Below are positions 1-1,246 of a stretch of 1,246 nt of DNA, piece by piece (position 1 is the first letter of the stretch; every line of letters starts with the position of its first letter). This stretch comes from Naegleria gruberi (lineage: Eukaryota): NCBI GenBank assembly GCA_000004985.1, contig GG739480.1, one strand, 5' to 3'. Made by a program: the position numbers and the translations under genes. Under the pieces are notes generated by a model. It was not told the origin of the DNA and made no database searches. It was given only the letters and a program-made list of their open reading frames with translations.

Positions 1-1056
1 ATAATTTTCTTTACATAATAAGTTTAATGCTAAACTAGGATACTTGGCATATGTTTTAAAATTCTTGATTTTCTCTTCAATAGTATCTAACTTATTATAC
101 ATACTACGATTTAAATGCCATAATTTATCTAAAACAAATGATTCACAACAATTAGTTAAATTATCTAATAGAGTATTATTTTCATCAGAAATACCAGCAA
201 CTATTTCAATTGAATTTCCATATCTATTCCATGTTCCTCCAATAATTGCTTGTTTTTGATCTTTAGGTTCAATATTACTTAATTCTACTATTTCAGTCAT
301 TTCATCACAAATATTATTAGGAATACTATTTGGAAAATATGCAGCGTCCATTGATCCATCAGGACGTAACATTATCATATTTGTTTTTCGATTACATTCC
401 TCATGTTCTTCCACATGGTCTCGGTGAATAAACCGAGTACCTCTCCAATTAATACCAATATCTAATTTAATTATTTTTTCAATTCTACAAATTAATTCTT
501 TATCAAATATACTCCTATCTAAATCAATTTCATATAAAAAAAGAGGATCTTTTAATACTTTTAAATCATCATCCACATCCAAATAACAAAAATCATGTTT
601 TTCTATCATTAATAACGGTAGATTAGCATTAATTGTAATATGTAAATCAGTACCATGAACAAAATATTCATTCAAATTACGTCCATTAGCTTGTATTGAT
701 GATGAATTATGTTTGATATGAAGAATCATCCTTTTAAATTCATTAAATACTTTTTTGCTATATGGTTCTTTGCATAGGCAAGCAGGTAAATCTCTACATA
801 AATATTTAATTCTATTAGAGAATTTCATGTAAAGAATAACATTTTCTTGGGCTCCTAATTCTTGTCCTCTAGCTATCCACTTTAAATTTTTGGGAAGAGA
901 CATTATTGAGTTCCAATCAATAAGAAATACAATATTTGGATTAATCTTTCGTAATTCTAAAACATCTTCAGAAATGTAGATGAACAAGTCGGAAGCTAGT
1001 TTCTTTAAAACCAAATCATCATTATTTGGCAAGAATTGTTCTTCATATGTGGCCAT
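1..1056 (-). CDS. Partial CDS: start codon at 1054-1056 (minus strand), 3' end runs off the window at position 1; 352 codons visible. Hypothetical protein; tentatively a GT-A-fold DXD-motif glycosyltransferase-like protein.
   Basis: Translating the minus strand by hand from the ATG at 1054-1056 gives MATYEEQFLPNNDDLVLKKLASDLFIYISEDVLELRKINPNIVFLIDWNSIMSLPKNLKWIARGQELGAQENVILYMKFSNRIKYLCRDLPACLCKEPYSKKVFNEFKRMILHIKHNSSSIQANGRNLNEYFVHGTDLHITINANLPLLMIEKHDFCYLDVDDDLKVLKDPLFLYEIDLDRSIFDKELICRIEKIIKLDIGINWRGTRFIHRDHVEEHEECNRKTNMIMLRPDGSMDAAYFPNSIPNNICDEMTEIVELSNIEPKDQKQAIIGGTWNRYGNSIEIVAGISDENNTLLDNLTNCCESFVLDKLWHLNRSMYNKLDTIEEKIKNFKTYAKYPSLALNLLCKENY..., with no stop in 352 codons. I enumerated every plus-strand tta, cta and tca (reverse complements of TAA, TAG, TGA) in 1-1056 and none starts at a position congruent to 1 mod 3, which is the frame of this ORF. 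At roughly 24% GC about 9% of random codons are stops, so a 352-codon open frame has probability around e^-33 by chance. Two in-frame stops (minus-strand TAA at 1084-1086 and 1090-1092) lie just upstream, and the ATG at 1054-1056 is the first start codon after them. All 5 Trp are TGG, all 6 Gln are CAA, and the frame contains no TGA/TAA/TAG, consistent with the standard code. The composition is rich in N, I, K, L, D and E, as expected for an AT-rich genome. The ORF track omits this ORF, most likely because it has no stop inside the window. Confidence 0.85.
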   Translation of the reverse strand, partial: MATYEEQFLPNNDDLVLKKLASDLFIYISEDVLELRKINPNIVFLIDWNSIMSLPKNLKWIARGQELGAQENVILYMKFSNRIKYLCRDLPACLCKEPYSKKVFNEFKRMILHIKHNSSSIQANGRNLNEYFVHGTDLHITINANLPLLMIEKHDFCYLDVDDDLKVLKDPLFLYEIDLDRSIFDKELICRIEKIIKLDIGINWRGTRFIHRDHVEEHEECNRKTNMIMLRPDGSMDAAYFPNSIPNNICDEMTEIVELSNIEPKDQKQAIIGGTWNRYGNSIEIVAGISDENNTLLDNLTNCCESFVLDKLWHLNRSMYNKLDTIEEKIKNFKTYAKYPSLALNLLCKENY

Positions 1057-1107
1057 TTTTTTAATAAAATTAAATTTGTTTTTTTATTTTTAGATAATAA
1101 TCATCTA
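1057..1107 (-). promoter_or_regulatory. AT-rich 5' leader or putative promoter region directly upstream of the CDS start; contains a 7-bp inverted repeat and no Shine-Dalgarno sequence
   Basis: Minus-strand sense reads ...GATGATTATTATCTAAAAATAAAAAAACAAATTTAATTTTATTAAAAAA-ATG. It is more than 90% A+T, has an A-run immediately 5' of the ATG and A at -3, and lacks any GGAGG-like motif. A -10-like TATTAT sits about 38 nt upstream of the ATG with no convincing -35. The inverted repeat TTTAGAT(aataatc)ATCTAAA at 1089-1109 overlaps the in-frame stops. Function is inferred from position only. Confidence 0.3.
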
Positions 1108-1246
1108 AACATTGCGTGAGAGGCTTTGGTGGGCTTTGGTGGGTGTTATTTGGACTAAATAAGAATGCTGGGTAGGATGGTTTGGATAAAAAAAACCTGT
1201 CAACCAAAAGAGTTTTAGTTTTCCAAATCGTTGCTTAGGTGCGGTA
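1108..1246. other. Compositionally distinct segment of about 41% GC with strong G-over-C skew on the plus strand; identity unknown (regulatory region, repeat-derived sequence, ncRNA, or 3' end of an upstream gene)
   Basis: Hand count gives 56 G+C in 1111-1246 (41%) against 22-25% in sampled coding lines. Within 1111-1180 there are 28 G against 5 C on the plus strand. The segment contains the tandem repeat above and several GG/GGG tracts. No tRNA-like T-loop (GTTCRA) is visible. Confidence 0.5.
1122..1145. repeat. Perfect tandem direct repeat, unit GGCTTTGGTG (10 bp), 2.4 copies; G/T-rich on the plus strand and C/A-rich on the gene-sense strand
   Basis: Read directly from the sequence: 1122-1131 ggctttggtg, 1132-1141 ggctttggtg, 1142-1145 ggtg. 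It lies 66-91 bp upstream of the CDS start codon. Confidence 0.75.

What the first reader, a model, noticed from the sequence alone, without database searches (positions are those of the whole stretch)
1..1056. The ORF track misses the dominant feature: a 352-codon minus-strand gene truncated by the window edge
The only ORF in the supplied track (plus 44..259) is antisense to a far longer and statistically certain open frame on the minus strand. That frame starts at 1054-1056 and is still open at position 1. The track appears to report only ORFs that close inside the window, so this gene is invisible to it. Any analysis that relied on the track would call this window non-coding or mis-annotate it with the 71-aa shadow ORF.
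Basis: seen in the sequence. Interest (0 to 1): 0.6.

Follow-up and report, generated by a model that had tools for sequence, protein, structure and literature searches.

The report
Truncated Naegleria Tet-like dioxygenase gene
The window holds the first 352 codons of a real 505-codon Naegleria gruberi gene, which joins an uncharacterised N-terminal domain to a Tet/JBP-type DNA-base dioxygenase; the ORF list misses it only because the gene runs off the contig edge.

Summary
The minus-strand frame from ATG 1056-1054 to base 1 is open for 352 codons (composition P about 4e-15). GC at codon positions 1/2/3 is 37/27/16%, a coding pattern. The ORF tool omits frames that leave the sequence.

The window is a whole 1,246-bp Naegleria gruberi scaffold, so this is a eukaryotic gene. 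Its deposited model (XP_002668002.1, "predicted protein, partial", 317 aa) stops early at a GTATGT that looks like a false splice donor.

An independent assembly (L006, 99.6% identical) shows the full gene is 505 codons. The 153 codons missing from the window carry the HxD...H iron triad and the 2-oxoglutarate arginine. A second small deposited protein (XP_002668005.1) is its C-terminal part.

- Residues about 201-440 are a Tet/JBP dioxygenase. NgTet1 (PDB 4LT5) matches at E 1e-12 with the single sequence and 6e-20 with the subfamily profile, and is the best fold match.
- Residues 1-170 are a heterolobosean-only domain. Elsewhere it occurs only as roughly 100-220-aa stand-alone proteins, and it has no recognisable fold relative.

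This is an ordinary partial gene. It is a moderately interesting uncharacterised Tet paralogue with a unique fusion.

The parts
1..1056 (-). Codons 1-352 of a 505-codon protein-coding gene, open at the left window edge.
   Evidence: Translation has no stop. It is statistically far beyond chance with a coding-type GC gradient. It is 100% identical to N. gruberi XP_002668002.1 and identical to the first 352 aa of the 505-aa P0016 on L006.
1054..1056 (-). Start codon ATG, in an A-rich context (AAAAAAATGG).
   Evidence: An in-frame TAA lies 9 codons upstream. The stand-alone homologues P0002, P0008 and P0014 start at the aligned position.
547..1056 (-). N-terminal domain (aa 1-170) of unknown function, an alpha/beta fold found only in heteroloboseans.
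457..546 (-). Linker (aa 171-200), very AT-rich (GC3 4%), joining the two domains in one frame.
   Evidence: Homology to P0002 ends at about aa 170. Homology to the N-terminus of the Tet paralogue P0012 starts at aa 177.
1..456 (-). N-terminal part (aa 201-352) of a Tet/JBP-type 2OG/Fe(II) dioxygenase domain. The catalytic HxD begins 10 codons beyond base 1.
   Evidence: The window protein alone matches NgTet1 at E 0.012, aa 222-348. The subfamily profile matches NgTet1 at E 5.8e-20. The full-length protein matches at E 1.3e-12. Foldseek's best hit for the full-length model is 4LT5, E 3.5e-10, TM 0.64 normalised to the target.
328..360 (-). Motif DGSMDAAYFPN (aa 233-243), the best-conserved stretch shared with NgTet1 (DGSVELAYLPN).
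   Evidence: Alignments.
223..225 (-). Arg278, aligned with NgTet1 Asn147 (the residue contacting O2 of the flipped 5mC). It is Arg throughout this subfamily.
   Evidence: Alignment. The role of Asn147 is taken from PMC7854593 and PMC4224472.
28..30 (-). Ala343, aligned with NgTet1 Ala212, which lines the hydrophobic pocket that sets product specificity.
   Evidence: Alignment. The role of Ala212 is taken from PMC4678852.
99..108 (-). The point where the deposited 317-aa model stops (last codon CGT at 108-106), followed by GTATGT (104-99), a donor-like hexamer that is probably a false intron call.
   Evidence: One search gives codons and sequence. The 35 codons beyond it stay in frame and align with the paralogues (SMYNKLDTIEEKIKNFKTYAKYPSLALN against NMFNKLDNINEDIKNYKIFAKYPTLALN).
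1057..1246 (-). 5' flank, presumably the promoter and 5' UTR. It contains a tandem 10-mer (GGCTTTGGTG twice) at 1122-1141.
   Evidence: There are stops in the gene's frame. The flank is conserved in L006. No Rfam family matches. A promoter role is inferred, not shown.
44..259 (+). 71-aa shadow ORF, antisense to the real gene.
   Evidence: It lies wholly inside the homology-supported minus-strand CDS.

Best explanation
The window is a complete small scaffold of the amoeboflagellate Naegleria gruberi. Its minus strand carries the 5' two-thirds (352 of 505 codons) of one intron-less gene. The product has three parts: a roughly 170-residue N-terminal alpha/beta domain of unknown function, a short linker, and a Tet/JBP-family Fe(II)/2-oxoglutarate dioxygenase domain. 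The full protein ends in a basic, NLS-like tail.

Shown: the gene is real, it continues past the window, and the full-length protein has the iron ligands H362, D364 and H418, the 2OG-binding R428, and the base-stacking F434.

Inferred: like NgTet1, it flips a 5-methylpyrimidine (5mC or possibly T) out of DNA and oxidises its methyl group using O2 and 2-oxoglutarate. The N-terminal domain is mildly acidic and also occurs as a free-standing protein in the same organisms. It most likely acts as a regulatory or partner-binding module rather than as a catalytic or general DNA-binding domain.
For: Open frame and coding statistics.

Identity to N. gruberi XP_002668002.1 on a 1,246-bp contig.

Full length: the same 90% cluster contains the 505-aa P0016 and the 253-aa XP_002668005.1, which overlaps window aa 253-352. 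The window is 99.6% identical to L006, and the L006 CDS is 505 codons plus a stop. The three substitutions within the CDS are all synonymous.

Tet assignment: the subfamily profile matches NgTet1 at E 5.8e-20 over 220 residues, including HxD, H and R. The full protein matches at E 1.3e-12. The best hits for the AF2 model are NgTet1, then CcTet, TET2 and FTO.

N-domain: a homologous family of stand-alone proteins and a confident AF2 model. pI values and the basic tail ending NKKRKK are.
Against: The catalytic residues are not in the window itself. They are read from a 99.6%-identical contig of another data set.

No Pfam model reaches threshold: 2OG-FeII_Oxy_3 scores 17.5 bits against a cutoff of 27, and there is no Tet_JBP hit.

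Three NgTet1 substrate or cofactor contacts are not conserved: Asn147 aligns with Arg278, His297 with Gly436, and Arg224 with Lys355 (or Lys357 if counted five residues before the HxD histidine). The substrate could therefore differ.

A 2025 methylome study detected no 5hmC in N. gruberi (PMC12344493).

Confidence: 0.85

Rival explanations
1. The open frame is a decaying pseudogene fragment, or the contig is an assembly chimera that joins an N-domain gene to a Tet gene.
For: The scaffold is only 1,246 bp. The gene is split over two tiny scaffolds in the reference assembly. This fusion architecture is found nowhere else. The linker is extremely AT-rich.
Against: The same junction, in one uninterrupted 505-codon ORF, is present in contigs assembled from a different data set (ERR1078381). 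All three CDS differences between the two sources are synonymous. A 505-codon ORF in 27% GC DNA does not persist without selection. All invariant residues of both domain families are retained.
Confidence: 0.04
2. The gene is real, but the two domains are made as separate products, or the fusion is a recent read-through with no functional coupling. For example, the Tet part might start from an internal initiation codon such as M227, M229 or M253.
For: Every other relative carries only one of the two domains. The paralogue P0012 starts within the region equivalent to the linker. Weak similarity continues 12 codons past the stop of the stand-alone gene P0002, as expected if stop gain or loss interconverts the forms.
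Against: No stop, frameshift or splice requirement separates the domains, in two data sets. The region between them has no recognisable promoter-like gap, since it is only about 30 codons long.
Confidence: 0.1
3. It is a Tet/JBP-fold enzyme whose natural substrate is not 5mC in DNA. The substrate might be thymine (JBP-like 5hmU formation), RNA, or another modified base.
For: Base-contact residues differ from NgTet1 across the subfamily: N147 to R, H297 to G, D234 to N. No 5hmC was detected in N. gruberi, and the authors of that study suggest thymine or RNA as substrates for the TET-like enzymes there (PMC12344493). Phage relatives include T-dioxygenases (PMC13229309).
Against: The nearest characterised relative, NgTet1, oxidises 5mC (PMC4678852). 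The stacking Phe and the Ala212 and Val293 pocket residues are conserved. An Arg contacting O2 of 5mC has a precedent in CMD1 (PMC7854593).
Confidence: 0.3

Closest known systems
NgTet1 (Naegleria gruberi Tet-like dioxygenase, UniProt D2W6T1, PDB 4LT5/5CG8/5CG9)
   Same: Same organism and same fold. HxD...H, R289, F295, V293 and A212 are all conserved, as is the DGSxxxAYxPN motif. Sequence E-values are 1e-12 (single sequence) and 6e-20 (profile), and it is the best Foldseek hit.
   Different: Only about 20-23% identical. The window protein has an extra 200-residue N-terminal domain plus linker, and a longer basic tail. N147, H297 and R224 are replaced by R, G and K. NgTet1 is biochemically characterised and this protein is not.
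N. gruberi XP_002668409.1 (NAEGRDRAFT_76676, P0003/P0012), Willaertia magna KAL9651215.1 (P0006) and the Logan protein P0005
   Same: These are the closest paralogues and orthologues of the dioxygenase half, at 51%, 38% and 37% identity by phmmer. They share the subfamily signature WxRxG, YP(S/T)LALN, KPY..HxD and GLV(Y/F)F(A/G/S)GxxHF.
   Different: None has the N-terminal domain, either in the protein or in the DNA upstream.
Stand-alone N-domain proteins: N. gruberi XP_002671235.1 (P0002) and XP_002669626.1 (P0013), W. magna KAL9647804.1 and KAL9652031.1
   Same: Homologous over aa 1-170 (26-59% identity), with the same start and the conserved motifs FxPKxGGLxFK, LIDWxS and LPxxLK.
   Different: They are 149-217-aa proteins, most ending in ...CF, with no dioxygenase domain. 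All are uncharacterised.
XP_002668005.1 (NAEGRDRAFT_77085, D2W6P1)
   Same: It is the same gene. Its 253 aa equal residues 253-505 of the full-length protein and overlap the window by 100 identical residues. From memory only, and not verifiable with these tools, this accession is one of the eight NgTet/'mYOX' paralogues listed with NgTet1 (Hashimoto et al. 2014).
   Different: It is deposited as a separate, N-terminally truncated protein on another 1,251-bp scaffold, and lacks the N-domain and the first 50 residues of the Tet domain.
Multi-domain Tet/JBP enzymes (mammalian TET1-3 with CXXC, kinetoplastid JBP1/JBP2, ParB-dependent phage T-dioxygenases)
   Same: The general design is shared: a Tet/JBP catalytic core joined to, or dependent on, an accessory targeting or activating module (PMC13229309; established knowledge for TET and JBP).
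   Different: The accessory domain here resembles none of those modules by sequence or fold.

Membership tests
Tet/JBP family of 2OG/Fe(II) nucleic-acid dioxygenases | Significant sequence similarity to a biochemically characterised member across the catalytic domain | tested here: met
   The window fragment alone matches NgTet1 only at E 0.012. The full-length protein matches at E 1.3e-12, and the subfamily profile at E 5.8e-20 over 220 residues.
Tet/JBP family of 2OG/Fe(II) nucleic-acid dioxygenases | Double-stranded beta-helix fold closest to Tet structures | tested here: met
   The AF2 model of the 505-aa protein has pLDDT 70. Its top Foldseek PDB hits are 4LT5/5CG8/5CG9 (E 3.5e-10, TM 0.64 normalised to the target), followed by CcTet, TET2 and FTO.
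Tet/JBP family of 2OG/Fe(II) nucleic-acid dioxygenases | HxD...H iron-binding triad | tested here: met
   H362, D364 and H418 align with NgTet1 H229, D231 and H279. They lie outside the window, 10 or more codons beyond base 1, and are read from the 99.6%-identical L006.
Tet/JBP family of 2OG/Fe(II) nucleic-acid dioxygenases | Arg binding the C5 carboxylate of 2OG (NgTet1 R289) | tested here: met
   R428 sits in the motif SGVRCGLVFF. It lies outside the window.
Tet/JBP family of 2OG/Fe(II) nucleic-acid dioxygenases | Arg binding C1 of 2OG (NgTet1 R224), described as strictly conserved in 5mC dioxygenases (PMC8256090) | tested here: inconclusive
   The alignment places Lys355 there. Counting five residues before the HxD histidine gives Lys357, the subfamily-conserved K of KPY. 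Arg360 is two residues before the histidine. The local alignment is ambiguous.
Tet/JBP family of 2OG/Fe(II) nucleic-acid dioxygenases | 5mC-contacting residues of NgTet1 (N147, D234, F295, H297) | tested here: not met
   F295 is conserved as F434, and D234 is conservatively replaced by N367. N147 aligns with R278 (inside the window) and H297 with G436, in all subfamily members. This bears on substrate specificity rather than on fold membership.
Tet/JBP family of 2OG/Fe(II) nucleic-acid dioxygenases | Pfam Tet_JBP (PF12851) at or above the gathering score | tested here: not met
   There is no Tet_JBP hit for the window protein or the full-length protein. 2OG-FeII_Oxy_3 scores 17.5 bits against a cutoff of 27. 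The Willaertia relative gives 13 bits for Tet_JBP against a cutoff of 34.9.
Tet/JBP family of 2OG/Fe(II) nucleic-acid dioxygenases | Fe(II)/2OG-dependent oxidation of a methylated base in nucleic acid | not testable with these tools
   This needs recombinant protein and LC-MS.
Any described family for the N-terminal domain (aa 1-170) | Sequence or fold match to a curated family or a solved structure | tested here: not met

The most novel reading that the evidence does not exclude
The N-terminal domain is a new accessory module of Tet enzymes. It is fused in this gene and free-standing elsewhere in Naegleria and Willaertia, so by Rosetta-stone logic the free forms would act in trans as partners or regulators of the other Tet paralogues. 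The R278/G436 subfamily would have a substrate other than 5mC, for example thymine, which would help explain why no 5hmC is detected in N. gruberi.
Probability: 0.15. Interest if true: 0.6.

Novelty: new member of a known kind. Interest (0 to 1): 0.3.

Why it matters
There are two practical points. ORF tracks that report only closed frames miss the dominant gene of short contigs. The public models of this gene are also wrong in three ways: the gene is split over two scaffolds, one model is cut by a false intron, and the other lacks its first 252 residues.

Biologically, N. gruberi supplied the model enzyme NgTet1, yet the in-vivo role of its Tet paralogues is unresolved, since no 5hmC has been detected. 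A paralogue with altered base-contact residues and a unique, lineage-specific N-terminal domain is a concrete candidate for testing alternative substrates or regulation. Anyone expressing the deposited 253-aa "protein" would be working with a truncated enzyme.

Tried and rejected
- **Protein libraries, window protein:** Pfam, PHROGs, NCBIfam and PADLOC gave nothing usable.
- **RNA families:** Rfam on both strands gave only a chance hit at E 0.9.
- **Repeats:** only short chance repeats, plus one tandem 10-mer in the 5' flank.
- **Word-indexed protein search:** it found only the deposited protein itself. Profile searches added few members. The exhaustive HMMER search was what revealed the paralogues. 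Its hits P0009-P0011 are DUF5122 and Rib repeat proteins matching a low-complexity 'LNxDGTEDTAFS' stretch, and I rejected them as spurious.
- **Second fusion or adjacency of the two domains:** none found in five related loci by tblastn or profile search of six-frame translations.
- **Gene neighbourhoods:** those in Willaertia and Naegleria give no functional clue. The large neighbouring orphan genes have no Pfam or PDB hit.
- **Combined alignment:** the first attempt was misaligned and was discarded.
- **Literature:** searches for the accession numbers and NgTet2-5 names found nothing. The Hashimoto 2014, Pais 2015 and Iyer 2009 papers are not held.
- **Exact look-ups:** P0003, P0013 and P0015 are not on record.

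Full report
**Observation.** The minus strand of window 1056..1 translates into 352 codons, beginning with ATG and containing no stop. That frame is open for 361 codons in all, with a TAA 9 codons upstream of the ATG. The other five frames carry 12-66 stops. The window is 27.6% G+C, so stop-like triplets are frequent. The composition-based chance of 352 open codons is about 4e-15, and 2000 shuffles never exceeded 137 open codons in any frame. GC at codon positions 1/2/3 is 37.5/27.0/15.9%, the gradient expected of a coding region in an AT-rich genome. The 71-aa plus-strand ORF at 44..259 lies inside this frame on the opposite strand. The ORF tool states that it omits ORFs that run off an end.

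**Where the window comes from.** The translated frame is 100% identical to one database protein, 'predicted protein, partial [Naegleria gruberi]' (EFC35258.1 / XP_002668002.1). That protein's longest contig is 1,246 bp, exactly the window length. The window is therefore a whole small scaffold of a eukaryote in Discoba, Heterolobosea. Bacterial-style reasoning about promoters and terminators does not apply. The deposited model has only 317 residues. It ends at codon CGT (window 108-106), immediately before GTATGT (104-99), which looks like a splice donor. The next 35 codons stay in frame and align residue for residue with paralogues.

**Extending past the window edge.** The same 90%-identity cluster contains two more sequences. 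P0015 is XP_002668005.1 (NAEGRDRAFT_77085), 253 aa, on a 1,251-bp scaffold. P0016 is a 505-aa protein from ENA and Logan assemblies of run ERR1078381.
- P0015 starts at window residue 253 and overlaps the window protein by 100 identical residues.
- P0016 is encoded on an 8.5-kb contig (L006, gene 211-1728). The window aligns to L006 19-1266 at 99.6% identity.
- The L006 CDS is 505 codons plus a stop, and its first 352 residues are identical to the window's.
- The only differences inside the CDS are three substitutions, all synonymous. The two indels lie in the last 12 bases of the window.
- If roughly three quarters of random changes are non-synonymous, seeing 0 of 3 has a chance of about 0.02. 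This is my own rough inference from very small numbers, but it is consistent with purifying selection.

In the reference assembly the gene is split over two tiny scaffolds and annotated as two unrelated 'predicted proteins'.

**The C-terminal half is a Tet/JBP dioxygenase.** The window protein has no Pfam, PHROGs, NCBIfam or PADLOC match. Against PDB sequences its only lead was NgTet1 at E 0.012 over residues 222-348, centred on DGSMDAAYFPN against DGSVELAYLPN. An exhaustive HMMER search of 1.84 billion representatives found three relatives of residues about 190-352 that continue further:
- P0003, N. gruberi XP_002668409.1, 51% identity
- P0005, a Logan contig, 37% identity
- P0006, Willaertia magna KAL9651215.1, 38% identity

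A profile of these sequences matches NgTet1 (4LT5) at E 5.8e-20 over 220 residues, covering the HxD motif, the second His and the 2OG Arg. Full-length P0016 alone matches at E 1.3e-12. An AF2 model of P0016 (pLDDT 70) finds the NgTet1 structures as its best PDB matches (E 3.5e-10, TM 0.64 on the target), followed by CcTet, TET2 and FTO.

**Residue mapping.**
- Conserved: H362/D364/H418 (NgTet1 H229/D231/H279), R428 (R289), V432 (V293), F434 (F295) and A343 (A212, inside the window at 28-30).
- Not conserved, across the whole subfamily: N147 aligns with R278 (inside the window at 223-225) and H297 with G436. R224 aligns with a Lys (K355 by alignment, or K357 at the same distance from the HxD histidine). 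D234 aligns with N367 in this protein only.
- The roles of these NgTet1 residues are taken from PMC4224472, PMC7854593, PMC4678852 and PMC8256090.
- The window itself encodes only the first part of the domain, roughly NgTet1 residues 93-220. It ends 10 codons before the HxD.

**The N-terminal half is an orphan domain.** Residues 1-170 are homologous to short stand-alone proteins:
- N. gruberi XP_002671235.1 (P0002, 174 aa, 59% identity, E 6e-56)
- N. gruberi XP_002669626.1 (P0013/P0008, 175 aa)
- W. magna KAL9647804.1 and KAL9652031.1 (P0014, P0018)
- Two environmental sequences (P0004, P0007)

**The fusion is unique.** In every other locus examined the two domains are separate.
- The Willaertia Tet gene has a divergent RCC1-type gene upstream (L001).
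- The N. gruberi paralogue P0012 has no N-domain in its 444 bp of upstream sequence, by tblastn or by profile search of six-frame translations.
- The stand-alone N-domain genes have no Tet sequence downstream.
- Homology to P0002 ends near residue 170 and homology to the N-terminus of P0012 begins at residue 177, so the junction is only a few residues wide.
- Weak similarity continues for 12 codons beyond P0002's stop (LIQLDAENDSIF against LYEIDLDRSIF). This hints that stop gain or loss interconverted the two forms, but it is not significant on its own.
- A chimeric assembly is unlikely, because contigs from a second data set carry the same junction in one ORF.

**Mechanism.** It is shown that this is a real, conserved, intact gene whose full product has the Tet fold and all metal and 2OG ligands. 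By homology with NgTet1, I infer an Fe(II)/2OG/O2-dependent oxidation of the methyl group of a flipped-out 5-methylpyrimidine in DNA. The substrate is open. The altered base contacts (R278, G436), the report that no 5hmC is detectable in N. gruberi, and the suggestion there that its TET-like enzymes may prefer thymine or RNA (PMC12344493) keep a non-5mC substrate at about 30%. The role of the N-domain is unknown. The Rosetta-stone pattern, fused here and free elsewhere, suggests that the free proteins may work with Tet paralogues. For comparison, one class of phage T-dioxygenases needs a separate ParB activator (PMC13229309).

**Comparison with what is known, and novelty.** The gene belongs to the known Tet/JBP family, and its two halves are already in GenBank as uncharacterised partial predicted proteins. 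From memory only, XP_002668005.1 and XP_002668409.1 are among the eight NgTet ('mYOX') paralogues listed alongside NgTet1 in 2014. I could not verify this, because those papers are not held and accession searches returned nothing. As far as these tools show, three things are new: the two fragments are one 505-aa gene, it has an N-terminal orphan domain, and it belongs to a small subfamily with changed base-contact residues. I rate it a new member of a known kind. It is of modest interest to specialists in DNA-base oxidation and is otherwise an ordinary partial gene.

**Caveats.** All statements about residues beyond 352 rest on L006, which is 99.6% identical to the window but is not the same assembly. 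No expression data were available. The full-length AF2 model is of only moderate confidence, with pLDDT below 50 around residues 326-340, 360-367 and 434-469. I therefore made no structural claim about contacts between the domains or about active-site geometry.

Noticed in passing
window 1235-1246; L006 1-19; L007 1-11: The JGI scaffold and the contigs assembled from run ERR1078381 all end within about 20 bp of each other, some 190-210 bp upstream of the ATG. This suggests a repeat or a hard-to-assemble element just upstream of the gene.
   Followed up: no
window 1122-1141: A perfect tandem 10-mer, GGCTTTGGTG twice, lies 66-85 nt upstream of the start codon and is conserved in L006. It could be a promoter element. 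It is the only notable repeat in the window.
   Followed up: partly
window 1070-1207 (-); L006 3-197 (+): A minus-strand ORF ends 13 nt before the gene's ATG and is open to the contig start in L006 (64 aa). It has no Pfam hit. It could be the tail of an upstream gene, or chance.
   Followed up: partly
window 1-1056; L005 445-1464; L001 6001-7056: Genes of this Tet subfamily have much lower third-position GC (0.16, 0.19 and 0.12) than the neighbouring genes I measured on the Naegleria-like contigs (0.24-0.35). No Willaertia neighbours were measured. The stand-alone N-domain genes look host-typical (0.30-0.35). The fused N-domain has drifted to 0.20.
   Followed up: partly
L006 4409-7937 (-); L005 2586-6499 (-): Both N. 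gruberi Tet paralogue loci have the same arrangement downstream on the opposite strand: an orphan gene of about 950 or 1047 aa, followed by a gene of about 210 aa. The two large proteins are weakly similar (19% identity, E 3e-8). There are no Pfam or PDB hits. This may be an old segmental duplication or a linked gene set.
   Followed up: partly
L003 718-756: Similarity to the window protein continues for about 12 codons past the stop codon of the stand-alone N-domain gene P0002. This may be a vestige of a former read-through or fusion.
   Followed up: no
L005 1-45: The contig starts with what looks like the 3' half of a tRNA gene (T-arm GGTTCGATCCC), about 400 bp upstream of the Tet paralogue P0012.
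   Followed up: no
L010 1433-2512: In Willaertia, an AlkB-type 2OG-FeII_Oxy_2 gene lies about 5.5 kb upstream of the stand-alone N-domain gene P0018. This is probably coincidental.
   Followed up: no
L008 and L009: Two Willaertia contigs carry the identical N-domain gene P0014, with the same called genes upstream and immediately downstream over about 11.5 kb. This is a recent segmental duplication or uncollapsed haplotypes.
   Followed up: no
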